64,000 nt of DNA from a virus: positions 32,001 to 96,000 of the IMG/VR virus record IMGVR_UViG_3300020045_002218, one strand, 5' to 3'. The notes beneath the pieces were generated by a model that saw only the letters and a program-made list of their open reading frames with translations, made no database searches and was not told where the DNA came from. This document shows, piece after piece, positions 521-61,135 of the stretch. The stretch's first letter is position 1. Every line of letters starts with the position of its first letter. Both the position numbers and the translations under genes were made by a program.

Positions 521-604
521 TTTTGTTAAGTACCTTGAGGCAAGCAACAGATTAGCAATGGTGGAATAGACCTAGGATTTACCACAAGATTTTACAAGGC
601 ACTT

Positions 605-840: not shown

Positions 841-907
841 AATTTGGAGCAGGTCGTAGGGAAAACACGAAATAAGTTTAACAATTCTTTATCAGGAATT
901 CAACTTT

Positions 908-1067: not shown

Positions 1068-1167
1068 TACATAAAAACCACCTTAATATATGGGTTAGTA
1101 TTGTTAAAAAACATATCAAATTCCTTTTCATTGTGGGTAAAAGTGGCAGAATGCCACATTTAAAATA

Positions 1168-2960: not shown

Positions 2961-3106
2961 AAACATCTTTGCCAAAGAATATTTAATCCACCTACTACAG
3001 CTCCTAAAAGATAATTTAACTCTTTAATAGGATTTACTTCCATTACTAAATAAGCTAAACCAAGATTTGCTATTAGTATTAATGTTTGTTTAAGTACACA
3101 ATTCAT
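2957..3106 (-). CDS. small hydrophobic protein
   Basis: MNCVLKQ... two hydrophobic segments; stop overlaps polymerase C start. Confidence 0.5.
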   Translation of the reverse strand: MNCVLKQTLILIANLGLAYLVMEVNPIKELNYLLGAVVGGLNILWQRCL

Positions 3107-4411: not shown

Positions 4412-6007
4412 TTACTCTTCCTCAAATATTTCTGATAATGATTCATCTAATTTAAATGAATCTTCTGTTAAACCAAACTCTGATAAGAGTTGATTATATT
4501 TTTTAAGTAATATCTTACCTCCTGTTGCACCTAAGCCCGTATCTGTTCTATCAGTAATCTCAAAGCCTAATTGATTGTAAACCAATTCAATTAACTGTTT
4601 AGGACTACTAGGGTTGAATGTAACTGGTTTAGGTATTTCTCTTGGTTTGATATTCTCAGGTTTCTTAGCTTTAGCTTTTCTATCTTCATAATCTTTAATC
4701 CAAGCTTGATTAGTAAGTGTTTCCTCTAACTGCTTAATTAAAGGATTATCTTGTATCTGAGCTAATTGAATATCTTTAATAGCTATTAACTCTTGTTCTG
4801 CTTTAAGAACTCGGTTCATGTCCAAGACCATTCCAGTTAATTCCATCTGAAGAATTACTTTTACAGAAGGAATAAAGATAGTATTGTAAATATCAAGTTG
4901 ATTATCAGCTACCATTATTGGATAGTTCTTTTTATAAAGATACCAAGTAGCTAAACAGTCTGTAAGGTTATATCTCAGTAAATCTTGCTTAGATATTAAC
5001 CTAATATCTTTAATATCCTCTTGAGCATAGTTACCCGTATATTCATGTGTATTTGGTTTAAGACCTAATGTATTACCTGCACATGAATTAGTAGCTAAGT
5101 ATGTAATGAGTTTTGTATCATCAACATTCTTAGTCATTACTTCTAAACCATAAAGTAATCCTTGCTGATCTAATAAGTTATTCATGAATAATTCATATAG
5201 GATAACCTTAGCATCATATCCAATATTGTGATATATAAGCTTTCCTTTATATGATTCAAAAAATTGTTTTAATAATGCTTTCTTATCATAGTTATCTATG
5301 TGATTTTGAAAGTAATTAGAAGATATTCCCTCTATATCTATAGAATCATAATCAATACAAAAAGCAATACCATTATGTTCATCCCAAGCAAATGCAATTG
5401 TACCAATACCTGCTTCATTGAAAGATAAGCTAAAGGCTTCTATGTCTACCGTTAAGGCATCATACTGATGTAACCTATCCAACCATAAGGCTATCTCTTC
5501 TATCGTGTCAGGATACGCTTCAGATTCAATAATATCACTACCTATTTCCTTATATGAACCAAGTACATGATTAGCTAAAGTAGATAGTGATAAATCAATT
5601 TTGCTTTGTTTACTTGGATCATAAAATAACACTTTGTAATTAAGAGATAGAATACAATTTATGTGTTCATATCCTTTAATCTTACAAGGTAAGATATACC
5701 CTAAATGAGGATCTACTTTAGTTACTCCTGTTAGGTATTTGAAATATGTACCATCACAAACTAACAAGGTATCTATCCCTAATGAGTGCAATGCAGGAAG
5801 TAAGCTACTTAGATATTCCTTGGCTTGAGAAGCTGTAGGTTTATCATATTTGAGACTAAAAGAGATTATAGTTGAAACATCCAATCCTAGAGCCTCTAAG
5901 GGGTCTAAATAATGCTTTTGGACTTCAGGTAATGAAAGACAAGTTTCTTTCATTAACAAGGCTATATGGAGATTCTCAGTTGAATTATGATGTAATAGGT
6001 GTTTCAT
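4412..6007 (-). CDS. DNA polymerase family A, N-terminal part (UDG-like domain, 3'-5' exonuclease, thumb start)
   Basis: ExoI DIEAF, ExoII HNIGYD, ExoIII YNLTD, QMELTG, FNPSSPKQL; N4 gp39-like N-terminus. Confidence 0.92.
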   Translation of the reverse strand: MKHLLHHNSTENLHIALLMKETCLSLPEVQKHYLDPLEALGLDVSTIISFSLKYDKPTASQAKEYLSSLLPALHSLGIDTLLVCDGTYFKYLTGVTKVDPHLGYILPCKIKGYEHINCILSLNYKVLFYDPSKQSKIDLSLSTLANHVLGSYKEIGSDIIESEAYPDTIEEIALWLDRLHQYDALTVDIEAFSLSFNEAGIGTIAFAWDEHNGIAFCIDYDSIDIEGISSNYFQNHIDNYDKKALLKQFFESYKGKLIYHNIGYDAKVILYELFMNNLLDQQGLLYGLEVMTKNVDDTKLITYLATNSCAGNTLGLKPNTHEYTGNYAQEDIKDIRLISKQDLLRYNLTDCLATWYLYKKNYPIMVADNQLDIYNTIFIPSVKVILQMELTGMVLDMNRVLKAEQELIAIKDIQLAQIQDNPLIKQLEETLTNQAWIKDYEDRKAKAKKPENIKPREIPKPVTFNPSSPKQLIELVYNQLGFEITDRTDTGLGATGGKILLKKYNQLLSEFGLTEDSFKLDESLSEIFEEE

Positions 6008-7838: not shown

Positions 7839-7845
7839 TATTTAT

Positions 7846-7871
7846 AAGCAGTTTATTGTCATGCTTAGGAC
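7846..7871 (-). ncRNA. H-type pseudoknot element (copy A)
   Basis: GUC-CU-AAGCA-U-GAC-AAUAAAC-UGCUU. Confidence 0.6.
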
Positions 7872-7877
7872 GTAAGA

Positions 7878-8261
7878 TTAATCTTCTAAGTCAGTTAGTT
7901 GCTTTTCAAGATCTTCAATACTCAAAGCATCTAATGATGCTTCTTTCTTATTTGCAAGTTTCTCACGAATAATTCTTGCTTGATTAGTTCTTAAAGCTTT
8001 AGTTTCTTTAGCTTGTTTATCAGCTAATTTAGATTCAATAACTGCTTTAACAACATCTCGCATTAACTCTAATTCTTTAGTTAAATGAGATCTTGGAGCT
8101 AACAATGTTGGACGCATTCTAGTATCAAGATTGTCACATAAAACTCCATAAGCAGTATCAAGTCTTTCTAGTGAATAACTCCATAAATCTTCAGTTGTTA
8201 CTTCACCATTACCTAAGTTAAATCTTATGTGTTGTTTTGTTGCTTCTAAGAAAATACTCAT
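7878..8261 (-). CDS. conserved phage coiled-coil protein, partner of the 655-aa gene
   Basis: IFLEATKQHIRF..GEVTTEDLW motif; ATGA-coupled. Confidence 0.75.
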   Translation of the reverse strand: MSIFLEATKQHIRFNLGNGEVTTEDLWSYSLERLDTAYGVLCDNLDTRMRPTLLAPRSHLTKELELMRDVVKAVIESKLADKQAKETKALRTNQARIIREKLANKKEASLDALSIEDLEKQLTDLED

Positions 8262-10225
8262 ACTTTTACCTTTAAATATCTTGTGAATGAACCAGTTACT
8301 TTAACAATAAATTCTGCTGGTTGAGTTGAAGAGAATCCTAAACCAGATAATTGATTATCTGATTCTGGTACTCTAAGTTTATTACCTAATACTTCAAATA
8401 CCTTACGATGTTTTTGTAATTCAGGTTTAAGGAATTCATTGAAGAATCCTCTTGGTGGTTCTGGATTTAAACAATCTTCTAAAATAAAGAAGGTATGTTT
8501 ATTACCTCTAGCATACTCTTCTGATAAGAAGTTAGGACTTCTTAAGATAGATTTTACTTTATGAAAGCCATTGGTATTAATATTCCAAATTTGTTTAGTA
8601 ATACCTTTTGAAGTATTATCTAACGAATTTTGAAACACTAATCCTTCTTGTGTAATAAGAATTTCTGCTACTTGAATCTTAGCATTACCTGCCACTGGTT
8701 TATCATAAGAAAAACTATATACTTGACCTTCATACTCAATCTCTGCTGTAAATCCAGCAGAACTTCTTGATGAAGAGTAGTTGTGTACAAATAGCTCAGT
8801 TACTCCATAAGGAGTTCTTTCCCAAATGATGTTTTCAACAGCTACTTTACCGCCAGGATTAATAATATCTACGTCTAGCATTCCAGTTAATCTTGAACGA
8901 CTTCCCTTGTTACTAAAGTAAATTTCATGACCATCTGGTTCAATAGCATGAGCATCAAAGTCAATATTATTAGTACCTTCTGTATTCCATTGGATTGAGA
9001 ACCTTAATGCACCCTCAACTTGTCCTCCAGCATCTTTAACTCTTTGCTTCATAGAATCAGCTACATCACCTGAATAACTAAAAGCAATATCATTACTCCA
9101 AGGGAATAATAATGGAGCTTCTTTGTCTTGTGCAGCAGTTAAAGACATTAAGTTACCTGACTGTTTACTTTCAAATAATACTTCAATAGCTTTAGCTGTA
9201 GGAACAACATTTTTAATAAAAGCTTCTAATGAAATTTCTTCTACTTTAGATAATTTCTTTGGATTGATGGTTTCAGTAGCTAATATATCAAATACATCTT
9301 TTTCTTTTGTAATACTTCTATCAATAAAGATAACTTGTTCTACAGATAAATCATCAATTACTGCATAACGTCTTTGTAAAGATTCTGTTAAACCAAGTTC
9401 TTGAATAGTAGCTTTAGCATCTTCTACCATTCTAGGTGTTACTAATGAAGTAGGTCTTTTGTAATTAGCTGGAGCAACAATAGCTTCAAATTTTCTTACA
9501 GCTTGGTCTAATTCCATTTCATTACTTAAATCTACAAGCAATGTACCAATAGCTGTATTACGAATCTTTCCTCCAGAAGTATAATTACTCCAAGCATAAA
9601 TATCTTTTGAAGTAGATTTATCATAAGCTTTTTTGTGAGCTAAGAAAGTAGATAACATAGCTTTAAACTCAGATCCTCTATAAAGAGAATTCTGTTCAAT
9701 TAACTCTAAAACAGTTTCAATAGAATCAATTGTGATTTCATCTAAACTTCTTTTGAATACTTGTTTAGTTGAAGATGATTCTCCAATAATGGAATCAATA
9801 GATAAACTACCTTTATAAACTTTGGTTTTAGGTAATTCAACATAGAAATGAGTCCATTTAACTAATTCTTTAGTAACGTTAAAGTCAGTACCTAACTTAG
9901 CATGATCACATAAGTATTCTGATTGAATAGATGCTTCTCTAACAAGCTTACCTAATACTTTAGGCACTTCTGTAAAAAGTCCATCTACATCAAAATCCCA
10001 CATAGTAACAATCTTGTTATCTATGATAGCTACAATATTTCCATATTGTCTAATAAATGATTTACAACAATTACAGTTGTGTTCTTGTTTAATAACTGGA
10101 TCAGCAAAGCAATCAAGATAAGCTTCCCATAAAGCATTTCTTTCAAGATTTACTACAAATAATTTGTGTTGACTCATTGAATCAAATTGATTCTTTACTG
10201 CTGTTTTAATATTTTGAAATGACAT
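8258..10225 (-). CDS. conserved phage protein with DUF2135/YfaP-like C-terminal domain
   Basis: HNCNCC metal motif; LRFSIQWN..DFDAH..EPDG..IYF..LDVD..VENI. Confidence 0.7.
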   Translation of the reverse strand: MSFQNIKTAVKNQFDSMSQHKLFVVNLERNALWEAYLDCFADPVIKQEHNCNCCKSFIRQYGNIVAIIDNKIVTMWDFDVDGLFTEVPKVLGKLVREASIQSEYLCDHAKLGTDFNVTKELVKWTHFYVELPKTKVYKGSLSIDSIIGESSSTKQVFKRSLDEITIDSIETVLELIEQNSLYRGSEFKAMLSTFLAHKKAYDKSTSKDIYAWSNYTSGGKIRNTAIGTLLVDLSNEMELDQAVRKFEAIVAPANYKRPTSLVTPRMVEDAKATIQELGLTESLQRRYAVIDDLSVEQVIFIDRSITKEKDVFDILATETINPKKLSKVEEISLEAFIKNVVPTAKAIEVLFESKQSGNLMSLTAAQDKEAPLLFPWSNDIAFSYSGDVADSMKQRVKDAGGQVEGALRFSIQWNTEGTNNIDFDAHAIEPDGHEIYFSNKGSRSRLTGMLDVDIINPGGKVAVENIIWERTPYGVTELFVHNYSSSRSSAGFTAEIEYEGQVYSFSYDKPVAGNAKIQVAEILITQEGLVFQNSLDNTSKGITKQIWNINTNGFHKVKSILRSPNFLSEEYARGNKHTFFILEDCLNPEPPRGFFNEFLKPELQKHRKVFEVLGNKLRVPESDNQLSGLGFSSTQPAEFIVKVTGSFTRYLKVKV

Positions 10226-10277
10226 GATAATTCTCTTTGTAAGTGATATGGTTTATAAAGCCATAGAAATGAATAAT

Positions 10278-10304
10278 GAGTAGTTTTACTTCATACTCAG
10301 GAAG
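10278..10304 (-). ncRNA. H-type pseudoknot element (copy B)
   Basis: CUUC-CU-GAGUA-U-GAAG-UAAAAC-UACUC. Confidence 0.6.
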
Positions 10305-10360
10305 GATTTGTAATCTACCAATCAACGGATGGAGGTACTTAGCTTACAGTGGCTAGACTT

Positions 10361-10459
10361 TTTTATTGCTGAACACTATTCCGAAAATTAATATCTCGAA
10401 CCAGACATCGAACCTGAATTTTATAACCTTTCCCGTGTTTTTGATAAGGCAACAATAAA
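10361..10459 (-). ncRNA. candidate rod-like ncRNA with two GGUUCGA T-loop-like motifs
   Basis: UUUAUUGUUG/CAGCAAUAAA and AACAC/GUGUU stems. Confidence 0.45.
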
Positions 10460-10487
10460 AGCATTTTTAAGACTTACTCAGGTCTTA
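10459..10487 (-). ncRNA. H-type pseudoknot element (copy C)
   Basis: UAAGAC-CU-GAGUA-A-GUCUUA-AAAA-UGCUU. Confidence 0.6.
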
Positions 10488-10604
10488 GGATAGTCAGTCG
10501 CACGCAGAAGCACTAAATTAATAAGCTGTGAACCATGACATTGTAACGCTAGTACATATTGTACTTATCCTTTTAAAGCATTTTATTGGCTGCAAGCCAC
10601 ATTG

Positions 10605-11904: not shown

Positions 11905-11935
11905 ATTTGTTGGATGTTAGTGGTGGTACACCACA

Positions 11936-15755: not shown

Positions 15756-15874
15756 AAGAAGATAGAATTTTAGTGGTTGTAACTAGAATTCTTCAGAAGA
15801 ATTCTAACATTTTTGTTAAGAAAAAGCAATAGTTATTTTTATTTATGGGTGAATAGCGGTGGAACACCGCATTA

Positions 15875-16411: not shown

Positions 16412-17419
16412 CTAGCTGATAAAATATTCAGCGTCTCTTATTTTACCTTCTAATGAGGTGTCGTATTGTTTATATTTGATTGGTCTACCTAGAAGTTCTG
16501 AGATGATGTTAGACAAGTAATTCATCTTATAGAGTTCTATGCAAATATCTAAGTAGTGTTGTCTCATTGTATGTACATTATTTGGATGACAATAGAATGC
16601 GTCATGAATGGTTAATATATTAAAACCACTCTTATAACATCTTCTAGTAAGTTCTCTACTAATACAAGCATCGCAACTTTGCACAACATTTGCAATGATA
16701 GGTATAGCATAATCAGTACATACACCTTGTTTCATGTACTCATAAGTGAATGAACTCTTAGTTCCATGAATATCTCTAATACGGAGTGATGTATTCTCTG
16801 CTTCATGAGCTAATACTCTAGCAGTATGACCATCCCATAACGTCCATTGATATTCTCCTTTCTTAGGATTCCAAGCAGACTTTAAGTCTTTAGCAATCTC
16901 AATAGTACAAGGAACTATTTCTTGTTGTGCAGCATAAAACTGTGTTAGTTCTGGAGTACCTTCACCAAACAATTCTTTTGGTATTCTTGTAGAACCATAG
17001 ATTCCTCCTTTCATTAAAGCTGATTTAGCATCATCTCTAGCTACCTGAATTTCAGTATCTAAATGATTATTCATCTCTTGAGTAAGATTAGCATATACAT
17101 CTTGTACTTTACCTGTGTTAATTAGATTGGTTTGAATAAGAGTTTTCTCACATCCGACTAACAAACCAGCAATACTGATACCTGAAGCACTAGCATCAAG
17201 ACCCATAATGAAGTTCGTTGGTTTACCAGCTTGAACTAAACGTAGTGCATTAACTGCCTTTGCAAATAATAAGCTTTTCTTTGCAATACCAATTCCATCC
17301 TCTAAGTAAGGCATATTGTCTTTTGTCCATTCTACACGCTCTTCCCATGTACATTTATCATGTCCAAACTGTGAAGCCACATCTATCAACAAATACTCAT
17401 AAGGTGTAATCTTTTGCAT
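16412..17419 (-). CDS. RNA polymerase II subunit 2 (N4 gp16-like)
   Basis: EYLLIDVASQFGHDK, motif A GLDASASG, motif B R..AK...YGS, motif C IHDAF. Confidence 0.92.
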   Translation of the reverse strand: MQKITPYEYLLIDVASQFGHDKCTWEERVEWTKDNMPYLEDGIGIAKKSLLFAKAVNALRLVQAGKPTNFIMGLDASASGISIAGLLVGCEKTLIQTNLINTGKVQDVYANLTQEMNNHLDTEIQVARDDAKSALMKGGIYGSTRIPKELFGEGTPELTQFYAAQQEIVPCTIEIAKDLKSAWNPKKGEYQWTLWDGHTARVLAHEAENTSLRIRDIHGTKSSFTYEYMKQGVCTDYAIPIIANVVQSCDACISRELTRRCYKSGFNILTIHDAFYCHPNNVHTMRQHYLDICIELYKMNYLSNIISELLGRPIKYKQYDTSLEGKIRDAEYFIS

Positions 17420-18183: not shown

Positions 18184-19107
18184 TTAATCTAATGCTATGT
18201 ACTCCTCTTTTGCTATGTTTATGACACTTTTATCATACTCGGATGATTGGTAGTTAATACTATATCCACTTGAATATAATCTACCTCTACTATCATAACG
18301 ATGTAGTAAATAGAACTTATCTGGAAGTTCATTATACAAAGAGTATGTTTCAGCTTTAGCTAATTCAAACTGATGTTTGATTTCTTCTAACTGAAGTACA
18401 GTTTTATCTTTGTACTCATCTTTCATCTTAAATTCTTTATCCCACTCTAATACGAATGAATCTAAAGATAATTCAATAGCATTTTGTATGTTTAATATAT
18501 CTAAAGATATTTTAAGATCATGATGATTATGTCTTTTCAAGACACAATGTTCTTTAAACGTTAAGAAACCGCAGTCATCATTACTAACAACTTTGTTTGG
18601 TTTACATAACATAGGTGGTAAGAATTTGGTTCTGTTTATAGCTTGTAATGTTATTGGTTCAAGTTTGTACACACTTCTAATACATAGTTCTTTAGAACTA
18701 TTATGGTAGATGTTATATAAGTCACTTGCACATAGTACAAATAAAATGTCTGCTGCTGTTTTAACACCGTCAATATCATCTAAGTATTTCAAAGAAGGGT
18801 ATATAGCTCCGCATACAGCTTGAATACTTTGACTATCTGAACTAAGACAAGCTATTAATACATCCATGACTAACTCATCACCATCAATAAATCCATTATA
18901 TAAATGATCTATCAAATGTGTTACTCTTGCTCCTCTTGAATAGAGATATTCTTTACTTAAGAAATCAGCAAGTAACTGTTTACATTGAGTAATCTTACCA
19001 TCAAGATTACGTTCAATGTCTTCCCTGACAAGTCTTCTAATATTCTTTTTATTAAAAGATTCCTCATTATGAATCTGTTCTAATCTGTCTAACATACTGT
19101 TCACCAA
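18184..19107 (-). CDS. RNA polymerase II subunit 1 (N4 gp15-like)
   Basis: FLPPMLCKP, NHHD..ISLD.LN, FYLLHRYDSRGRLYSSGY.INYQ. Confidence 0.92.
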   Translation of the reverse strand: MVNSMLDRLEQIHNEESFNKKNIRRLVREDIERNLDGKITQCKQLLADFLSKEYLYSRGARVTHLIDHLYNGFIDGDELVMDVLIACLSSDSQSIQAVCGAIYPSLKYLDDIDGVKTAADILFVLCASDLYNIYHNSSKELCIRSVYKLEPITLQAINRTKFLPPMLCKPNKVVSNDDCGFLTFKEHCVLKRHNHHDLKISLDILNIQNAIELSLDSFVLEWDKEFKMKDEYKDKTVLQLEEIKHQFELAKAETYSLYNELPDKFYLLHRYDSRGRLYSSGYSINYQSSEYDKSVINIAKEEYIALD

Positions 19108-19731: not shown

Positions 19732-19751
19732 CCACCTCATAGAATGCCTTT
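19732..19751 (-). promoter_or_regulatory. repeated early-region motif, copy 5 (candidate phage promoter)
   Basis: AAAGGCATTCTATGAGGTGG. Confidence 0.6.
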
Positions 19752-19802: not shown

Positions 19803-19830
19803 AGTAAAGTGGACGTAAGTCCACTTTACT
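19803..19830. repeat. 12-bp perfect inverted repeat, GTAA loop
   Basis: AGTAAAGTGGAC-GTAA-GTCCACTTTACT. Confidence 0.8.
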
Positions 19831-20266: not shown

Positions 20267-20286
20267 CTACTACATAAAATGCTTTT
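20267..20286 (-). promoter_or_regulatory. repeated early-region motif, copy 4
   Basis: AAAAGCATTTTATGTAGTAG. Confidence 0.65.
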
Positions 20287-21250: not shown

Positions 21251-21270
21251 TCACTATATAGAATGCTTTT
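21251..21270 (-). promoter_or_regulatory. repeated early-region motif, copy 3
   Basis: AAAAGCATTCTATATAGTGA. Confidence 0.6.
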
Positions 21271-22043
21271 AAGATTGTATAAAGACTTGTTAAGAAGTAT
21301 TAGTAGTTACTTTCTAAGTCAGATATTTCTTCTTCAAGATCATAAACTTCATCTTTGAGTTGATTTATTTGTCGTTGAAGTGAAGGAATATCTAAGTTGT
21401 AAACATACTCTTTTAATTCTTCAAGAGTAAGAGAAGGAAGTTTAAGAACTTCATCAATGGTAAAATTTGAAGGTATCATAATAGTTCTATAAGATTGTTA
21501 GTAGTATCTTAGTGGACGTTAGTCCACATTGTAATTAGTGTTTAGTGTAATTTTAGTTTTTTATTATTTGTAGATAGAATGTTAAATTGTATAAAATTTA
21601 CACAATAACAATATATAGACATATCCTGTATCTTGACTACTATATGTAGTATTAAGAGATAATATTTGTATAATATTTATACAATATAAATATTCTTCCT
21701 ATTAATAACTAAGGTTATTAGGACTAACTTATTGTTTTATATAACAACTAATAATTATATTGGTTCATTATTTTACTTTTACTCTAAAATATGGTATTAA
21801 TACTACATTGTATTTGTATCATTCAAACACAAAGCCTTTATGACTTATATGTATTTACAGATGAACCATAACTGATTGGACTCTCTATAAGGCTTTGAAC
21901 TGTTCTCATGATACAAACACAAAGTAGTATAAATACTTCAATTTAAGGATAGAGTTCTTTACTCAGACTATCTCTGCTGTGTGCTTTATGTGTAGCTTTA
22001 AAGCTTAAAGACTCAAACCAATTAAGGAATGAGTCTTTATTGT

Positions 22044-22933: not shown

Positions 22934-22953
22934 CTACTACATTGAATGCTCTT
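22934..22953 (-). promoter_or_regulatory. repeated early-region motif, copy 1
   Basis: AAGAGCATTCAATGTAGTAG. Confidence 0.65.
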
Positions 22954-48097: not shown

Positions 48098-51000
48098 ATG
48101 TCTTCTACATTTAGGGGTTCAACTTTTGATAGTTCTTCTTTTGATAACAATACTGACTTGGTACATCAAAAGAAAACAAGTCTATTAGATAAAGTATTTC
48201 AAAAGAGAACTGATTTAGGATTCAGTTCAGCTAATTTAAAGGATAGATCTGTAGAAGCATTGGATGCTGATACAGTTAGAATTAATCCTAGTGTAGCAGA
48301 TAAAGCTTTTGATCCTATGGTTAAACCAGTAGATGTAAGACTTAAAAGTAATAACTTTGGTGAATCATTTAATGCTTTTGAGACTTCTCATGATAATGAA
48401 GATGATCCTGAAGTAGCTGCTAGATTACAAAAACAAAGAGATACTATTGATAATGAATGGACTCATGGTTGGTTTAATCCAGCTACAAACCAAGATGTAT
48501 ATGATAGAGGTAATGCTAGTAAACAAGTATTAACAGATAAGCTTAAAACAGTCAATGAAGGTAAAACTGGATTAGACTTTGCTTTAGGTGAAAAAATTCA
48601 ATTAGACAAATTTGGTAGACCATTAGGTGATATGAAATTCTCTAATGAGGATGTATCTGCTATTGATGCTATGAATACTCCTGAGTTAAATGCTTCCTAT
48701 AACACACCATATAACTTTGCTAAAGTAAACAAAGATGGTGGTGGATTAATAGATACAGCTAAAGACTTTGCAGGTACTCTTTTAACTAAAACACCTACCG
48801 TATTAGGTAACATAGCTGTTGGTACTCATGGTTTAGCTTCTGCAATGGTTAATGCACCTACACAGGCACTAGGAAATATTGTAGGTGGTGATACTGGAGA
48901 CAGCATTAAAAAGTTTGGTGATATAGCTAGTACCTATGAGTTACAAAATATTCTTCAAAATAGAACTCATTATGCTAAACCTTTAGTAGATGCTTTACCT
49001 ATATCGGATGAGGCAAAAGACACCTTAAACAATCTTAAATATGAACCAAATAGATTAGATGCTACTACTGATAAGCTATATCAATCTGATGCTTTAGCTA
49101 AGTCAAGACAGGATTCTGAATACAGATCAAACCAAACACAAAGATTAAGGGATGAATTAGGGTATAAACCAAAAGGTGTATATGAGAGTGCTATGGCACT
49201 CTCTTCTGATGTAGTGGATTCATTACAGGCATTTGTAGAGAATCCTAGAGCAACACTTACACATGATTTACCTGCTAACATAGCTCAATTAGCTGTACCT
49301 ATTGGAGTTACAGGAAGAATTGTAGATAACATAGCTATGAAAATTGCATCTAAAACTTCTGGAGGAGTTGTTGATGGTGTAATTACCCAAGTAGGTAAAG
49401 ATGCAGCAACTAAATATATTAGTTCTGCTCCTGTACAAAAACAGTTATTAGCTATAGGTGGTTTAACTGAAGGTACTCAAGCAGCATCTTCTATTGTAAA
49501 TCAGGCAGAAGAAGCTAATGTATCTCCTAGTCAGTATTTAGCACCAGCTATTGTAGGAGGTGTTGTTACAGGTCTTATTGGTACTGGTTCAAATAAATTA
49601 CTTGGTGCTACAGCAGCAGATGCTCTAGTTGGTGTAAACAGAGTTAAAGGATCTGCATTTACTAAAGCTCTTAAAGCGTTTACATCAGAAGGGATAGTAG
49701 AAGAATTTCCACAATCGGTAAATGAACAGTTAGCTACAAATATTGCATTAGGAAAAGAAAATGTAATAGAAGGTGTAGGTCAAGCAGGTGGTTCAGGAGC
49801 TATTGTTGGTGGTCTATTAGGTGGAGGTATGCACACACCTATATTGTTACAGGATGTTCTACAAGCTCGAAAAACACCTTCAGTTGAACCAACATCCGTC
49901 TCAGAAGAGAAACCTTCTACAATCGAAGATTTGACACCTTCTAAGGTAGATATTAAAGCTTATGAAGATTCAGTTAATAACATTACAGATGACAACAGAC
50001 AAGAAGTTATAAACCAAGGTATTAAAGATTATCCTGTTGACGGTACTTTACCTGAAAAGATTCAAATGGCTGTAGCCATTGGTAAAGCTAGAGATGGGTT
50101 TAATTCACCAGAGCATGATGCAATATATAGACAAATTAATGCAGAAATTCAATTACAGAATTTTGCTAAAGGAATGCCTAACTTCAATGATGTAATTTCT
50201 GATCCAAATACTTCAATTGAAGATATTCAAGATAATCTTATTACAGGTGCAGTAGATTCTACATCAGAGAATACTGGCTCATTATTTAATGATATTGGTA
50301 GAACTAAAGATGAGGATACATTAAATATTCTTAAAGATATTTCTATAGCTAAACAAAAAGAGTATGCTGAAAGTGATACAGTAAATGATCCTTATGTATT
50401 AGTTACTACAGGTATTGAAACTAAAAACTTACCTAAAGAATCTTCTGAAGTATTCTCATCTATTACAAGGAATGAATATACAGACTTAAATCAAGGATTA
50501 ACTTTATTATCTAGTCATGTTAAATCAGCTACAACACCAGAACAAAAGAATACTGGTATATCAGCATTAACTAAAACTATCTCTAAAGTATATTCAGATA
50601 AAGTAGATATTACTTCTGCTACAGAAAGATCAGTTAAACAAGCATTAAATACTATTAATGGTTTAGTTAATAACAAAGGTACTATTACTATTGAACCAAG
50701 TGATACATTAGAACAGATTCACAATAAGATATTACCTACATTTGGTTCAACTCCTATTAAAGGTAGTTCTAGTAATCCTAAAGCAAATGCTTTTATAAAA
50801 GCTACTAATAAAGTATTACAAGGCGCACAAACATTATCTAAATTCTTAACACAAAAATATGTAAATGATAAAACCACAGGTGAAGTACATCAAGAAATAA
50901 TTGATGGTAAAGGTGAGAAATTAAGTGTACTAGACCATGCTACTATTATTTCTGGAAAGATTGCAGATACAAATTCTGATGAAGAATCAGTAAATAGGGC

Positions 51001-54000
51001 ATTTAATAGATTTACTAACTGGGTAGACTTTCATACACAAAAAGCAGAATTATCTACTGCACTAGGAGCTATTCCAGAATCTAATAAGAAAGCTCAACAA
51101 ATAATTGAAACAGCATTAGAAACTTTACAAGGACAAGATACTTTTAAAGAATTTAAGAGTAATCCAATTATATGGACTAAAGGATTATCTAGTTTAGCTG
51201 AGACAATGAATGCTGAAGTATTTTTCATGCAGAATACTCTTGATACTTTACAAGAATTAAAAGATGCTAGGTTTGGTTCTAAAAATACTGCTACACAAGT
51301 AACCTCTACTGCTGAAAGTATCTCTCAGACTGATGAGAATGCCCTAGATTTAACGAATGTAAATCAGGAAGATACTATTGAAGAAATCAATATGGATGAT
51401 ATTCCTGAGAAATCAGTAACCTCTAAAGAATCTTCATTTAATGAAGAACAAGAAAAAATTTATCAAGATTATGAAGCTGAACAAGATTCACAACAACAAG
51501 CTCAAAATGAGCCTACAAGCAACGAAATAAGTAAATCTGAAGAAGTTATTACCTCAGAAAAGAAAGCTTCTGTAACAGTATCTACAGAGCTTACAGAGGT
51601 ATCTTTGGATAATGAACAGACTCAAGATTTACTTGAAGTACCTTTACCACCTGAAGATACTAAAAATTATTCAGAGTTAATTAATAGAACGTATTTCCCC
51701 TTTAGTACAGAAGAACAACTTAAAAGTATTAGAATATTTTTCTTTGCTAATGCTCTAAAAAATAAGATACCTGAAGCAAAAGCTAGATTTTTGTACTTAC
51801 AAGAGTTAGCTACAAATAATAAAGATACTATTAATGAGACATTTGATTTACCTATCTGGCGTTTTGATATTATAAGACCATATTCTTTAACTCATAAATG
51901 GAAAGATGGTAAGTTAGTATCTAAAACTAGAGCAGTAATTACTTCCTTAATAGATAACACAAAGCAATTCTTTAGTGATTTATTTAATATTAAAAATGAT
52001 AATTTATTTAACAGAATTCCTAATTTATTGGAACATATCCAACAAAATAAATTAGTAAATAATGATAGCTTAGATGCAATAGTTAAGTTTCATACTGATT
52101 TTGTTAAAACATTTGAAGCTAATATTAACCCTGAATTACTTAAAGAAAGTTTATCTGATAATGCTGCATCATCATTATTTGTATATGATCCTAAAAAAGG
52201 TAAAACATACCTAGAACCAAATACTTTATTTGCTATGAGTCTTGGTTCAATACAGTTTTTACAAACAGCACTATCTACGGTTTATAATGATGATGATGCT
52301 ATTAGAAGTATTGTTGGTTTAAAAGAAGGTGACAACTTACCCGCTTATGTAAGAGATTTATTAAGTGATAAAGGTTCTGTAGCTAACATAATGAAGAATC
52401 AATTAGGAGCTTCTTTATCTAAGTTGTTAGGTGTAACATATAAACCAGATACTACATTACCTCAAATCGAAGGATTTGAAGCTTCATTAGGTGCTTATGC
52501 TTTAAGAACTCTTATTGATATAAAATTACTCGAAGAAACTCAAATTGAGAAATCTACTATTAATGCTATGAAGAATCAACTTGAAGAAGGAACTCTTCCA
52601 GGAAACCAAAAGACACAAGATATAGTAAATAAACTTTACATTGGTGCAACAACCTTTGTAAGAGTAGCTGCACAAAAGAATATTGAAACAGGAAGACCTG
52701 AAGTAAAATCTGAAATTAAAGAACTACTTGAAGCTATTAAACCAGCAAGTAAAGAATTAGATGATTTACTTAATACAACATTTTCAGAAGCATTACCTTC
52801 AGGTAGTAAAACTTCCTTGAAGGCTTTAAAAAAATGGTTAGGTAAAACTTGGCAAGGTTCTAATGCTGAATATACAGAAGCAGAATACAAAGCAATAAAG
52901 AAGTATAACGATACTGCATATACAGCAGAAACTAAAGCTATGAATGCTGCTTTAATATTAGATGAAGAATTTATTAAACAAGTAGCTTTAGGTGAACAGT
53001 ATACTGATGTAGTTCAAAAACATTTTGAAAAGACTAGAGCAGGTAAAGAATTACAAGCAGAGAATGAGTACAAGTATTTGATGGATTCCTTTGATGTATT
53101 TAAAGAACATGGTTCACTTTACTTCTTATCTAAGTTTTGGAAACAAGGAAGAGTAGGTATGGAGAAAGGACCGCAAAACAGTAAAATGATGAGATGGTTA
53201 TTTGCTCCTAAAGGTGTTGAATATGAAGTTAACTTATCTAACAAAGAATCCTCTAAATTCTTTAAATTAGCTGTTGTAGCAGCATTTGGTACAAAGATAG
53301 ATCAAATATTAGATACAGCCTTAGATAAAGAATTTGATGCCTTACTGGTCAAATATAAAGATGTCCTAGAAGACTACTCTAAAACTAAAGGATATACAGA
53401 AAATGTAACACAAGAAATGAAAGATACTCTTCTTGATGCTATATATGCTGGTAAAGAAGGATTTCATAGTTATGCTGGATTACTTGAATTAGCCCATTAC
53501 AATGAGAATAAAGATAAAGGTAAATTTACTTCTCAGTTAATGAGAGAAGATGATGGTATTACTAATGGTCCAGCAATAGGATGGTTACTCTTTAATGGTG
53601 GAGATAATAAAAGAGTATTAGATGGATTTGCTATCTTTACAGATAGTCATGAAGATACATTTACTACTCACATGGCTAAAGAAGGTAGTGCAGATAATTA
53701 CAATCTTATGGGTCAAAAAGCTAAAGAGAACCAAGTAATTGTTAATAATAAATTAGAAGAGTTAAACACTTACTTAACAGAGAATCCAACTGTAAGATCT
53801 TCTATATTTAGAATTAAATATTATGATAAAAAGAACGGAACAGACTCTTTTAATGCTTGGTTCTATAAACAAGGTTTAGGGGATATGTTTGCTACAAATT
53901 CTTATGAGTTTGGTTTATTACTTAATGTTATTGAAGAATCTAAAACTCTTATAGATACCAACGAAGGTAAGAAGAAAGCTAATTATAAAGAGAATTTACA

Positions 54001-57000
54001 ACCTACTCTAAATGCAATTCATTCTATGGTAGGGGAGTTAAATAGATCATTTGCTAAGATGCCTTTAATGACGCTTATCTTTGGTTCGGGTATTAATAAG
54101 ATTGCTAGTAATATTGGATATATTGCTATTGATTCTATGTATGAAAAGATTCAAAAGGTTATTAGAAGTAAACCAAAGAACCAAGAAGAAATAGATGCAC
54201 AGAGAATATTACTTAAAGAAATAGAAGATAATATTATTGAGCTTACAGGATATGATATTCCTTTACCTTTAAACGAAGATAAAGAAGAAGATGCTTCTCT
54301 TTATTCTAATTCTGTTGCAGAAGATTACGATTCAACATTAGCTGCATATTCTATTGAAGCTCTTAAGAATTTTAAATTACCTATTTATGTAGAAAAGAAA
54401 TTAGCTAAACAAATAGCTAATGTTTATGTACCTATTATTAGAGCTTCTGTTAATGCTAACTTTCAAACATTTATTGATAACAGAAAAGCTATAAACCAAA
54501 TATATGATATAGGTAATACTGTACTTAAAACACATATAGAACATGAAGTATCTCTTGTTCTTAAAGATGGTTTAACTAAACAGAAGTTATTAGATATTTT
54601 TGAGAAAGCAGTTAAGCTAATGCCTTCAATGAAAGTACCTAATTTTGATGGTACTGAGAGAGAAATATTCTATTGGAATAAAGATGAATCTAGTTCTACT
54701 ATGCCTGAATTTAAGGTACAAGTAAAACGTAAAAAGAATAAAGAAATACTGTCTTTTTCTTATTTAGATGATAACGGTGAGGTACATACAAGTAAACCAG
54801 TAATACTTAACAGTTCAACTGATACAGGTCATGCAGTAGGTATATTACTTGAAGCTATAGGTGTAAGAACACCTATTATGACTATTCACTATACAGATTC
54901 TTTACCTGTTAAAGAAATAATGAACAGTAACTTAATATCTACTATGGTTCATGATGCTAGAATTGGTGCAGCAAATACTTCTGATGAAGGAAGTTATTTG
55001 ATGAATAAGAAGTTGCTTGAAAGCATTAATTTACTTAATCCATTTAAACAAGCAACAGATTATTTACAACAAGTATTTGATAACTTACCTAAAGGAGATT
55101 CTAAACTATCTAGTAAATTAAAAGATGCTTTAGAGAAACCTTTAAAAGAAGCATTTAAGAATAAACAAACTGTTCCTCATGTACAACAAGGTAAAAGAAA
55201 GGTAAGTCCTTTAGTCTATAACAAAGAAAATTCAGGTAAACAATTTAAAGATTATTTAGGCTATTTAAATGAATGGGTGAAATACCAAACAGGTGTAAAA
55301 AATGAGATAGCTAAGTCTATTAAAGCATTTGGTAACTATGGTGGTAATGCTACATTTAAACCTCAAATGGTTGAAGCTGTTAAACAAGACAATTTCAGAG
55401 AATTAGTAGCAGAAGAGTTTAAAGATGTACTAAAGAATATCTCTTTAGGTAAAGGAAATAAACCGTTAAACGATATAACAGATAAGCTTATAAATCTATA
55501 TACACAAGTAAATGTTGTAGAAACACTGCAAGAGTTTATTAATAGAATAGATACTCTTGGTTTAACTATTGAGCAATTCAAACAACATCAAACCAATATT
55601 GAGAATAAAATATTAGGTACTTCTAAACAAGAAACTAAAACTAAACCAAATAAATCTAATAAAGAAGAAGTAACTAATTCAACAACTCAAACTAATGGGG
55701 ATAAATTAGTAATATTACCTATAGGTACTTCTGGTTCAGGTAAATCTACTTGGATTAAAAGTCTTAAAGGTGAGTATGTAATTATTTCTCCTGACGAAAT
55801 GAGAGTTGAATTCACAGGAAGTATGGATGATAAGTCTCAAGATAAAGAAATTTATGAAGCTGTAAAACAAAGAACTATTAAAGCTATAAATCAAGGCAAA
55901 CAGGTAATTATTGATAGTACAAATCTTCAAAGAGATAGAAGAAGAGACTTTACTAATGCTATTTTACAAGCTATTCCTGATGCTAACGTTGTTTATAAAT
56001 TACTTCCCTTAAATCCAGAATTAGCTAAACAAAGAATTAAAGCTCAAATAGATAAAGGTGAAAATAGAGCAAATGTTCCAGATAGTTCAATTGATAGACA
56101 TGCGGAATTATATAAGGAAATGCTTAATGATATTAAAGATGAGCCTATAAAAGAATTCAAAGAACAAACCAATGAAGATATTCCTTTTATTTTAACTAAA
56201 GATAAAGTACAAAAATTAAAAGAATTTCTAACTAAATACATAAACCAATCGTCTACATATTCTATAAAAGAGGTTCTTACTTTAGTAAATACTAAAGCTC
56301 CAGACTTTAAAGATATGGATATTGTAAAGTATATGTATGGACAGTTACTGTCTACATATTATTCTGATACAAAACAAAAAGAAGATTTTGAAAAAGGTAA
56401 TAATACTCCAGATCAATTTTATGCACATAAAAATTATTGGAATACTAGAAAAGAATATGGACTTAGATTAGTTAAAGACAATCAGTCTGGTAAAGTAAAA
56501 TTACAGAATATTAATAAACAACTTAATGAAAATAATAAACCTCTTGGTTCAACACCTGATGCTAAAGATTTACTTACCGATATAGAAGATTTAAAGAAAG
56601 ATATTACTACTGAGAATATAGTATCTGAATTTGATGCTATGCCTAAAGGTGATGATGAAACACATAACACATTCTTAAGAAATTTTGTGTCTCAAGTAAT
56701 AGCTCCAGTAGTAGAAGCAACTGAATTACTTCTGTTTAGTAAAGCTACATATACCTATGGACAGTATTCTGCTGAGTTAAAGAAAGTAGCTATTAACTTA
56801 GGTCAAGCATTACAAGAACAATACTCTCCATTTAAGATGTCTGCTCAAGAAGTATTTGCCCATGAATTCTCTCATGCTGTTACTTGGACTGCATATCAAA
56901 TGCCTAAGAATGGTACCCTTAAAAGAAAGATTGATAGTTTATTTTATAATGTAAGAAGAGAGTTTAATAAAGCTAAATTAATAGATACATCTTTAGCTAA

Positions 57001-60970: not shown

Positions 60971-61135
60971 AAGTTATAAGCCTAGGGCGTATTGAATAAT
61001 GAAGATACTTCATATAAATCAAAGACATAAATGAACACTCTCTTCTATTATATTTAGGTAGATTTTTAATTATGTGCTACGCACATTGCGTAAGCAGACT
61101 TCGTCCGCTTCCACGCTCCAATCTAATATACATGA

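What the first reader, a model, noticed from the sequence alone, without database searches (positions are those of the whole stretch)
7846..10487. Repeated, covarying H-type RNA pseudoknot used as an intergenic punctuation element
Seen on the minus (coding) strand: A 7846-7871 GUC-CU-AAGCA-U-GAC-AAUAAAC-UGCUU; B 10278-10304 CUUC-CU-GAGUA-U-GAAG-UAAAAC-UACUC; C 10459-10487 UAAGAC-CU-GAGUA-A-GUCUUA-AAAA-UGCUU; E 908-937 GGCU-C-AAGUAG-AAU-AGCC-UGAUAA-CUACUU. A possible minimal copy lies at 10577-10599. Both stems change sequence but stay paired (S1 GUC/GAC, CUUC/GAAG, UAAGAC/GUCUUA; S2 AAGCA/UGCUU, GAGUA/UACUC). In A-C, the CU loop 1, 1-nt loop 2 and A-rich loop 3 are kept. All copies are intergenic. 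Established: type III antitoxins (ToxI) are compact H-type pseudoknots that phages can mimic, and compact pseudoknots can block exonucleases or regulate translation. Inference: a structure-selected phage RNA element acting as antitoxin mimic, processing/protection signal or protein ligand.
Basis: partly seen in the sequence, partly recalled or inferred. Interest (0 to 1): 0.85.

Follow-up and report, generated by a model that had tools for sequence, protein, structure and literature searches.

The report
Widespread phage gene-end RNA pseudoknot
Three of the five reported "pseudoknots" are genuine copies of a tiny, strongly conserved folded RNA that sits just after gene ends in hundreds of unrelated phages, is absent from the RNA family catalogue, and probably shields the ends of phage messenger RNAs.

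Summary
Copies A (7872-7845), B (10304-10277) and C (10487-10459), all on the minus strand, are real. Inside this one window the evidence is weak: a loose pseudoknot descriptor fits about 430 places per strand, the same as in shuffles.

Across these sequences both stems covary (96% of cells paired against 77% in shuffles, 0 of 500 shuffles as high). Loop 1 (C-U), a 1-nt junction and loop 3 (..AAAC) are nearly invariant. A covariance model built from the outside sequences finds exactly A, B and C in the window (E 3e-4 to 3e-6). Copy E and the "minimal copy" are not members; the latter is an N4-type GNA-triloop hairpin.

The element lies on the sense strand. It starts 5-11 nt after a stop codon in 84 of 150 cases and never 0-4 nt after one. 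In several phages it is followed at once by a tRNA gene or a hammerhead ribozyme.

No Rfam 15 family matches it, and I found no paper describing it. Earlier agents of this scan reported what appears to be the same kind of element on other genomes.

Best reading: a constitutively folded cap or barrier at the 3' end of the upstream gene's mRNA (about 0.45). The ToxI-mimic idea is not supported.

The parts
7845..7872 (-). Pseudoknot A. S1 7871-7869 / 7860-7858 (GUC/GAC; the fourth pair, 7872/7857, is a C.A mismatch). Loop 1 is C7868 U7867. S2 7866-7862 / 7850-7846 (AAGCA/UGCUU), plus U7867-A7845. The junction is U7861. Loop 3 is 7857-7851 (AAUAAAC). It starts 5-6 nt after the TAA stop (7880-7878) of the 127-aa gene and ends 7 nt before the next ATG (7838).
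   Evidence: model R1 hit 7874-7843, 30.0 bits, E 2.8e-4, not in the seed; the same S2 variant AAGCA/UGCUU occurs in other phages
10277..10304 (-). Pseudoknot B, the canonical copy. S1 10304-10301 / 10292-10289 (CUUC/GAAG). Loop 1 is C10300 U10299. S2 10298-10294 / 10282-10278 (GAGUA/UACUC), plus U10299-A10277. The junction is U10293. Loop 3 is 10288-10283 (UAAAAC). It ends 52 nt upstream of the ATG of the 655-aa gene.
   Evidence: R1 hit 10306-10275, 39.3 bits, E 3.2e-6 (it was one of 150 seed sequences)
10459..10487 (-). Pseudoknot C. S1 10487-10482 / 10473-10468 (UAAGAC/GUCUUA). Loop 1 is C10481 U10480. S2 10479-10475 / 10463-10459 (GAGUA/UGCUU, two G.U pairs). The junction is A10474. Loop 3 is AAAA (10467-10464; A in place of the usual C). 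It lies 117 nt after the stop of the 419-aa vWA-like gene.
   Evidence: R1 hit 10487-10456, 34.9 bits, E 2.6e-5 (a seed member)
871..899 (-). Doubtful divergent copy F: AUUC-CU-GAUAA-A-GAAU-UGUU-AAAC-UUAUU. It has the family geometry, the CU loop 1, AAAC, and 5 of 5 S2 pairs (one G.U).
   Evidence: the descriptor without an S2 requirement found it (background 5/5 pairing is 9 of 857); but R1 gives only 8.1 bits, E about 10. Treat as unproven.

Best explanation
A, B and C are members of a large, uncatalogued family of compact H-type RNA pseudoknots of about 28-30 nt. The consensus is: S1 of 4-5 bp closed by an invariant C-G pair, loop 1 C-U, S2 (U)GAGYA/URCUC(A), a 1-nt junction, and loop 3 ending in AAAC. 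The element is transcribed as part of phage mRNAs.

Shown: the fold is under selection, it lies on the sense strand, and it is placed just outside the footprint of a ribosome that is terminating on the upstream gene.

Inferred: it stays folded all the time and acts in cis as a mechanical barrier or 3'-end cap. After the transcript is cut further downstream (by RNase P at a tRNA, by a hammerhead ribozyme, or by an endonuclease), or after it ends, 3'-to-5' exonucleases would stop at the knot. The upstream cistron would then be kept intact up to its stop codon.

In this N4-like phage, A caps the 655-aa/127-aa gene pair. B and C sit in the 379-nt spacer in front of that pair.
For: Family and fold.
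- S1 covaries freely (A-U 58, C-G 43, U-A 26 and so on). S2 shows compensatory variants GAGCA/UGCUC, GGACA/UGUCC, AAAUA/UAUUU, AGGCA/UGCCU, GGGUA/UACCC and AAGCA/UGCUU.
- 49 of 67 non-canonical loops pair 5 of 5 positions, against 9 of 857 in the background.
- The covariation score is 0.556 against 0.184 in shuffles (0 of 500 as high) and 0.04-0.15 in the slid controls.
- G.U pairs are frequent (U.G 59 at one S2 pair), which fits RNA read from this strand.

Sense strand. Flanking genes lie on the same strand as the element on both sides in 130 cases. Both lie on the opposite strand in 3.

Tie to the gene end. The distance from stop codon to knot is 5-11 nt in 84 of 150 cases, 0-4 nt in none, and negative in 3. 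In the same loci, ordinary terminator-like hairpins start less than 5 nt from the stop in 27 of 129 cases and show no such peak. The distance from knot to an SD-preceded start is mostly 19-41 nt.

A 3' end is made just downstream.
- In L199 two knots each abut a type III hammerhead (Rfam RF00008, 50.5 and 41.2 bits).
- A tRNA gene starts about 10-13 nt after the knot in L050, L081 and L138.
- In Arthrobacter phage Amigo the order is SSB stop, 6 nt, knot, tRNA-Gly.

A in the window has the typical 5-6 nt spacing after a stop.
Against: - There is no transcript-end, half-life or nuclease data; the function is inferred from position alone.
- Strong sequence conservation of S2 and the loops across phyla is more than a mere roadblock would seem to need. 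It could point to a specific partner or to chemistry.
- About 15% of copies have a TAAATA (T4-late-promoter-like) motif 8-40 nt upstream, so some may lie at the 5' ends of transcripts.
- B and C are not next to a stop codon. A lies only 7 nt from the next ATG, closer than in most other phages.
- Nested folding energies of the window copies are unremarkable (z -0.9 to -2.1).
Confidence: 0.45

Rival explanations
1. The knot is a specific recognition or processing site: a docking signal for a conserved protein or ribonuclease (RNase P, E, Y or III, or another host factor) that cuts or marks the polycistronic RNA at gene boundaries.
For: Near-invariant single-stranded positions (C-U, AAAC) and a preferred S2 sequence hold across hosts from Saccharibacteria to Lactobacillaceae, Rhodobacteraceae, Actinobacteria and Bacteroidota. 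The element sits next to other processing elements, tRNA genes and hammerheads.
Against: No partner is identified. S2 tolerates complete replacement when the change is compensatory. Invariant loop bases are also what a compact triplex pseudoknot needs for its own tertiary contacts (my knowledge of BWYV-type and preQ1-I folds).
Confidence: 0.2
2. The knot acts on the terminating ribosome. Sitting at the mRNA entry channel when the stop codon is in the A site, it would stall, release or block onward movement of ribosomes, insulating neighbouring cistrons or tuning termination and reinitiation.
For: There is a sharp exclusion of 0-4 nt and a peak at 5-11 nt after the stop. This is the same spacer range as between slippery sites and frameshift pseudoknots (the spacer range is from my knowledge). 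The knot also lies about 19 nt or more from downstream starts.
Against: One third of the copies have no ORF end within 60 nt, B and C among them. The spacing is equally explained by a need not to be melted by ribosomes, combined with compact genomes.
Confidence: 0.12
3. The knot is a transcription signal: a terminator, attenuator or antiterminator formed in the nascent RNA.
For: A U-rich run (6 or more U in 8) follows the knot in 39 of 224 copies, against 5 preceding it. UGCUCUUU resembles boxA (my knowledge). In StB12 and in L247 an intrinsic terminator follows within 10-60 nt.
Against: Transcription must pass through the knot to make the tRNAs, hammerheads and closely following genes downstream of it. 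Most copies lack a U-run. S2 covariation argues against recognition of the boxA sequence.
Confidence: 0.08
4. The knot is itself a small ribozyme or a ligand-binding aptamer.
For: It has highly conserved unpaired bases in a preQ1-I-like architecture. It lives in the same niches as hammerheads.
Against: Neighbouring genes are very diverse: 86 clusters among 121 downstream genes. That is unlike a riboswitch. No cleavage-site logic is evident. There is no Rfam match.
Confidence: 0.05
5. The knot is a type III antitoxin (ToxI-like) mimic that neutralises ToxN/TenpN/CptN-type abortive-infection toxins.
For: Only the general likeness of a small pseudoknotted RNA.
Against: The copies are dispersed and single, not tandem repeats. 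One copy per genome is seen in SIO1 and StB12. The element is tied to stop codons. It occurs in phages of very many phyla.
Confidence: 0.02

Closest known systems
Luteovirus/enamovirus -1 frameshifting pseudoknots (e.g. BWYV, 28 nt)
   Same: The architecture and size are almost the same: a 5-bp S1, a 1-2-nt loop 1 beginning with C, a 1-nt junction, and a 6-7-nt A-rich loop 3 ending near ..AAAC, placed 5-9 nt downstream of the codon the ribosome is decoding (my knowledge of the BWYV structure; spacing).
   Different: Here the element follows a stop codon in dsDNA phages. There is no slippery site and no overlapping reading frame. S2 is longer (5-6 bp). No sequence relationship was tested.
preQ1-I riboswitch aptamer (Rfam RF00522)
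   Same: A compact H-type knot with a short P1, an A-rich tail (..AAAAC U..) lying in the P1 groove, and a 3' tail that pairs with the loop.
   Different: There is no Rfam hit. S2 is long enough to form without a ligand. There is no link to queuosine genes. The element sits after genes rather than in leaders.
REP elements and terminator hairpins as 3' mRNA stabilisers in bacteria
   Same: They sit between cistrons right after stop codons and have a proposed role as barriers to 3' exonucleases (established for REP in malE-malF; my knowledge).
   Different: Those are simple hairpins without a conserved tertiary motif. In the same loci such hairpins show no 0-4 nt exclusion and no 5-11 nt peak.
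Exoribonuclease-resistant RNAs (xrRNA) of flaviviruses and plant viruses
   Same: A small pseudoknotted fold that works as a mechanical block to a processive nuclease (PMC12397905, abstract only).
   Different: xrRNAs block 5'-to-3' Xrn1 with a ring-like fold of about 45-70 nt in eukaryotic RNA viruses. Here the direction would be 3'-to-5', the host is bacterial and the fold is simpler.
ToxI and other type III antitoxin RNAs
   Same: Small pseudoknotted RNAs connected with phage-host conflict.
   Different: ToxI is a tandem array of 36-nt repeats next to toxN and is cut by ToxN. None of these features is present here.

Membership tests
The new gene-end pseudoknot family (model R1, built here) | Significant match to a covariance model built from phage and prophage sequences outside the window | tested here: met
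   A 30.0 bits (E 2.8e-4, not in the seed), B 39.3 bits, C 34.9 bits. The next best hit in 64 kb scores 13.1 bits. E and the 'minimal copy' give no hit. F scores 8.1 bits.
The new gene-end pseudoknot family (model R1, built here) | Both stems pair, with loop 1 = C-U, a 1-nt junction, and loop 3 ending AAAC | tested here: met
   C has AAAA instead of AAAC and two G.U pairs in S2. A has a 3-bp S1.
The new gene-end pseudoknot family (model R1, built here) | Sense strand, starting 5-11 nt after a stop codon | tested here: inconclusive
   A meets it (5-6 nt after TAA 7880-7878). B and C are on the sense strand, but no ORF ends within 30 nt upstream of them.
Type III antitoxin RNA (ToxI/CptI/TenpI) | Tandem array of about 36-45-nt direct repeats | tested here: not met
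   The copies lie 181 nt and 2.4 kb apart and are single.
Type III antitoxin RNA (ToxI/CptI/TenpI) | Adjacent ToxN/AbiQ-type endoribonuclease gene, or a demonstrated mimic of a host array | tested here: not met
   The neighbouring proteins match phrog_1735, phrog_2018 and phrog_26613, and Pfam gives nothing ToxN-like. Host arrays could not be examined.
preQ1-I riboswitch (RF00522) | Match to the Rfam model | tested here: not met
   No Rfam hit at gathering score, at E<=5 over 24.5 kb, or at E<=10 over 101 nt around B.
preQ1-I riboswitch (RF00522) | Leader of queuosine/preQ1 genes | tested here: not met
   Downstream genes are highly diverse. In the window the downstream gene encodes a 655-aa protein of unknown function.
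Luteoviral -1 frameshift stimulator | Slippery heptamer 5-9 nt upstream and an overlapping -1 frame | tested here: not met
   The element follows stop codons in intergenic DNA. No ORF continues through it.
   TGGCT-TGC-AGCCA is one of seven such hairpins. The phage encodes N4-like RNAPII subunits and a 3972-aa ORF. The promoter definition comes from PMC4496689 and PMC9163698. Promoter activity was not tested.

The most novel reading that the evidence does not exclude
Phages of nearly all bacterial phyla share one tiny, sequence-conserved triplex-type pseudoknot as a universal 'gene-end cap'. It would be a self-contained RNA device, parked at the exact edge of the terminating ribosome, that sets mRNA 3' ends and cistron-specific stability without any phage protein. 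It may also turn out to have its own chemistry or a universal host partner.
Probability: 0.4. Interest if true: 0.85.

Novelty: new variant of a known kind. Interest (0 to 1): 0.78.

Why it matters
If this is right, it is one of the most widespread cis-acting RNA elements of tailed phages, and it is missing from Rfam 15. It would explain how phages set different mRNA levels within long operons. Observed positions include the gap in front of the scaffold/capsid genes in Staphylococcus and Lactobacillus phages, and the gene ends of RNR in SIO1 and SSB in Amigo. It would offer a portable 30-nt stabiliser or insulator for synthetic operons. It would also give phage annotation a new marker of gene ends. 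Cultured model phages carry it (SIO1, StB12, phig1e, Amigo), so the question can be tested directly.

Tried and rejected
- Close relatives of this phage. I therefore saw no near-identical genomes and no reads. The fetch from genomes holds no genome for this window.
- Relatives of the 655-aa gene in IMG/VR and JGI (38-65% identity, L001-L033). They carry no such knot beside the gene. In L029 a plain hairpin follows the 123-aa gene. The knot is therefore not tied to this gene family.
- T7-like RNA polymerase promoter. Five phage genomes at least 94% complete that carry the knot have no PF00940 match. Caveat: that search rang in no control genome either.
- General promoter or punctuation at every gene. 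SIO1 and StB12 have one model hit each. The strict pattern matches once or twice in each of five large phage genomes.
- boxA/NusB-E site and pistol ribozyme. These were considered from memory. S2 covariation, the topology and the absence of an Rfam hit speak against them.
- Literature. Motif-string and keyword searches gave no description of this element. A bulk catalogue of about 10,000 viral RNA candidates (PMC10690425) may contain it; I could not check.
- Stx2a phages, E. coli phage AugustePiccard and P-TIM68. Their BLAST look-alikes are not supported by the model.
- The spacer between C and B is not unusually structured (z +0.5).
- Some GTDB pattern hits (Pseudomonas, GC-rich) lie in coding sequence without an S1 and are chance matches.
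Full report
**What is in the window.** The window comes from an N4-like phage of about 30% GC. It has two N4-type RNAPII subunit genes, a split family-A DNA polymerase, a ribonucleotide reductase, portal, terminase and capsid genes, and a 3972-aa ORF at the place of the virion RNA polymerase. Genes from 1 to about 22.9 kb are on the minus strand.

A fills the 39-nt gap between the 127-aa gene and the next gene. C and B lie 181 nt apart in the 379-nt ORF-free spacer between a 419-aa gene and the 655-aa gene. No small ORF ends next to B or C.

**Is it more than chance, judged from the window alone?** Mostly not.
Ten dinucleotide shuffles gave 389-449.
- With loop 1 fixed as CU there are 31 sites against 18-29 in shuffles.
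- The shared octamer CCTRAGYA occurs 5 times against 6.9 expected.
- Local alignments among A, B and C score 24-27, below the ten best scores of shuffled intergenic sets.
- Nested MFE folds use S2 in A, an extended S2 in B and S1 in C, with z-scores of -0.9 to -2.1.
- Only a statistic tuned afterwards to the A-C geometry and limited to intergenic DNA stood out: 16 hits against 7.0+-2.8, and a best triple sharing 6 of 9 columns, reached in 1 of 400 shuffles.

The 'covariation' among three copies picked for their pairing was therefore circular at this stage.

**Outside sequences change the verdict.** These contigs have GC of 0.28-0.64 and sizes of 4-216 kb, and several carry two copies on one strand. 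A slightly wider pattern matched more than 119 contigs of GTDB genomes from very many phyla. Many of these contigs are 35-50 kb and look like phages or prophages. A few GC-rich Pseudomonas hits lie in coding sequence and are chance.

In 125 unique IMG/VR copies the bases flanking the loop covary almost perfectly: A77/T44 opposite T77/A43, and G78/C28/A13/T6 opposite C77/G28/T14/A6. Two bases the pattern left free complete S2 (C in 116 of 125, then A in 88 of 125). The position allowed to be A or C is C in 124 of 125.

To test S2 without circularity I scanned 2.8 Mb of held DNA for a 4-bp stem, an 8-nt loop, 1-4 nt and then AAAC, with no S2 requirement. Of 67 loops of the form CU....A. that were not the searched sequence, 49 pair at all five S2 positions with the five bases after AAAC. 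Among all other candidates only 9 of 857 do.

The S2 variants are compensatory: GAGCA/UGCUC (the commonest), GGACA/UGUCC, AAAUA/UAUUU, AGGCA/UGCCU, GGGCA/UGCCC, GGGUA/UACCC, and AAGCA/UGCUU, which is the window's A.

On an alignment of 148 such sequences plus B and C, the pseudoknot gives the following.
- 96.1% of cells are paired, against 77.0% in shuffles (0 of 500 as high).
- The covariation score is 0.556 against 0.184, and 0.04-0.15 with partners slid by 1-3 columns.
- All four S1 pairs change on both sides in 5-84 sequences.
- Three S2 pairs change on both sides.
- A fourth S2 pair alternates between U.G, C-G and U-A.

The many G.U pairs fit an RNA read from this strand.

They are B 39.3 bits, C 34.9 bits and A 30.0 bits (E 2.8e-4). 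A was not in the seed.

E (908-937) and the 'minimal copy' (10577-10599) are not found. The latter is a 5-bp/3-nt-loop hairpin of a separate family of N4/LUZ7-like hairpins (PMC4496689 and PMC9163698). A further candidate, F (871-899), fits the descriptor with 5 of 5 S2 pairs but scores only 8.1 bits. I leave it open.

**Is it known?** No Rfam 15 family matches. This holds at gathering thresholds over the window, at E<=5 over 24.5 kb, at E<=10 over 101 nt around B, and at E<=0.1 over nine other carriers. Literature searches found no description. A bulk catalogue of viral RNA candidates could contain it unnoticed.

BLAST with one copy found carriers among cultured phages, none annotated at that spot. 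Of these, the model supports Roseophage SIO1, Staphylococcus phage StB12, Lactobacillus phage phig1e, Arthrobacter phage Amigo and crAss-like cr7_1. Lentibacter ICBM1-3, Celeribacter P12053L and Synechococcus S-CRM01 were BLAST matches only and were not run against the model.

Notes of this same scan describe what looks like the same kind of element on other genomes (e1-5350340, e1-3598929). I reached the family independently before reading them.

**What the context says.**
- *Strand.* Flanking genes are on the knot's strand on both sides in 130 cases, and on the opposite strand on both sides in 3. Convergent ends (15) outnumber divergent starts (6).
- *Distance from the stop.* Among 233 unique copies, 150 have the stop of an ORF of at least 60 aa within 60 nt upstream. 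The distance from stop to S1 is 5-11 nt in 84 of them, 0-4 nt in none and negative in three. The three negative cases are those where the UGA inside CCUGAG is itself the stop.
- *Control.* In the same loci, terminator-like hairpins begin less than 5 nt from the stop in 27 of 129 cases and at 5-11 nt in only 23. For any strong hairpin the count below 5 nt is 124 of 636.
- *Distance to the next start.* Downstream, SD-preceded starts lie mostly 19-41 nt after the knot, and almost never closer than 19 nt.

The knot is thus parked just beyond the reach of a terminating ribosome and just outside an initiating one. A in the window has the typical 5-6 nt spacing.

*What follows the knot.*
- In a Polynucleobacter contig, two knots are each joined to a type III hammerhead (Rfam RF00008, 50.5 and 41.2 bits).
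- tRNA genes start about 10-13 nt after the knot in L050, L081 and L138.
- In phage Amigo the order is SSB stop, 6 nt, knot, tRNA-Gly.
- In SIO1 the single copy starts about 10 nt after the RNR stop, reading S1 as GCAC.
- In StB12 and phig1e the single copy lies between the minor head genes and the scaffold/capsid genes. In StB12 an intrinsic terminator follows 60 nt later.

Downstream genes are very diverse, with 86 clusters among 121. Five large, nearly complete carrier genomes have no T7-like RNA polymerase (weak control).

**Reading.** Shown: a conserved H-type pseudoknot RNA on the sense strand, tied to gene ends, with a ribosome-sized exclusion zone.

Inferred: it stays folded and serves as a barrier or cap at the 3' end of the upstream cistron. 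The cases where RNase P or a hammerhead must cut a few nucleotides downstream show two things. Transcription reads through the knot, which speaks against a terminator. And the knot ends up at the 3' terminus of the upstream RNA.

The architecture is that of the luteoviral frameshift knots and the preQ1-I aptamer: a 5-bp S1 closed by C-G, loop 1 C-U, a 1-nt junction and an ..AAAC loop 3. Both folds are known for tight triplex packing; this comparison is from my own knowledge and no structure was computed.

I put this reading at about 0.45. The rivals are:
- a specific protein or RNase site (0.2), favoured by the unusual sequence conservation;
- an effect on the terminating ribosome (0.12), favoured by the sharp spacing;
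- a transcription signal (0.08): a U-run follows 39 of 224 copies;
- a ribozyme or aptamer (0.05);
- a ToxI mimic (0.02).

About 15% of copies have a TAAATA motif 8-40 nt upstream, so some may lie at the 5' ends of late transcripts. That case is not explained by a 3'-cap role.

**Limits.** No reads, transcript ends or near-identical genomes could be examined. The seed sequences were gathered with sequence patterns, which inflates apparent conservation of S2. The role of B and C, which are not next to a stop codon, is unclear.

Noticed in passing
window 1143-1157, 10587-10599, 11920-11934, 15856-15870, 19803-19830, 21512-21527, 61072-61086 (read on the minus strand): A second, unrelated hairpin family: (A)ATGYGG-type 5-7-bp stems with 3-4-nt loops (GNA on the template strand). 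Most lie right after stop codons, and three have CAYCCA about 12 nt downstream. They look like the hairpin promoters of N4 vRNAP and of LUZ7 early/middle genes (PMC4496689, PMC9163698). The pair 11943-11894 / 15882-15833 is the top-scoring intergenic similarity in the window.
   Followed up: partly
window 20269-20284, 21253-21268, 22936-22951 (minus strand); similar sequence near 19750: A promoter-like motif, AAGCATTYTATRTAGT, lies upstream of small genes in the presumed early region. It produces an excess of high-scoring intergenic alignments over shuffles.
   Followed up: partly
window 48098-60016 (+), 16412-17419 and 18184-19107 (-), 1857-2975 and 4412-6007 (-): The window is an N4-like phage at about 30% GC. 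It has a 3972-aa ORF where the virion RNA polymerase is expected (by size and position only; not searched), two RNAPII subunit genes, and a family-A DNA polymerase split into two genes about 1.4 kb apart.
   Followed up: partly
L193:1166-1258:-, L220:1957-2058:+, L207:1775-1876:+, L188:4716-4832:- (bacterial MAG contigs): Tiny ORFs of 30-38 aa end in ..AHC.EGC....S, and their UGA stop is the UGA inside the knot's CCUGAG. In these cases the peptide gene overlaps the element by 5 nt. This is a different, possibly chromosomal, context.
   Followed up: no
L247 (Selenomonadaceae MAG contig, 6.9 kb held): Six copies of the knot lie within 4 kb. Three are followed within 10-15 nt by an intrinsic terminator-like hairpin, and two are preceded by a repeated module of about 45 nt. 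This may be an array of small RNA genes that end in the knot.
   Followed up: no
L199 7271-7347 and 7541-7617 (minus strand; Polynucleobacter MAG contig): Two knot-plus-type-III-hammerhead units lie 270 nt apart, with the hammerhead starting at the last base of the knot.
   Followed up: partly
L138 2886-2908 (-): One knot overlaps the 3' end of an ARAGORN-predicted permuted tmRNA gene in a viral contig rich in tRNA genes.
   Followed up: no
window 574-581, 715-722, 3029-3036 (minus strand) and 10300-10306: TAAATCCT, or AAATCCT just upstream of B, is enriched in minus-strand intergenic DNA: 3-4 occurrences against 0-1 in about 25 kb of coding sequence. Its meaning is unknown.
   Followed up: no
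window 15790-15818 (minus strand): A good sigma-70-like promoter (TTGCTT, 17 nt, TAGAAT) lies in the spacer upstream of the 242-aa helicase-like gene. It follows a GNA hairpin.
   Followed up: no
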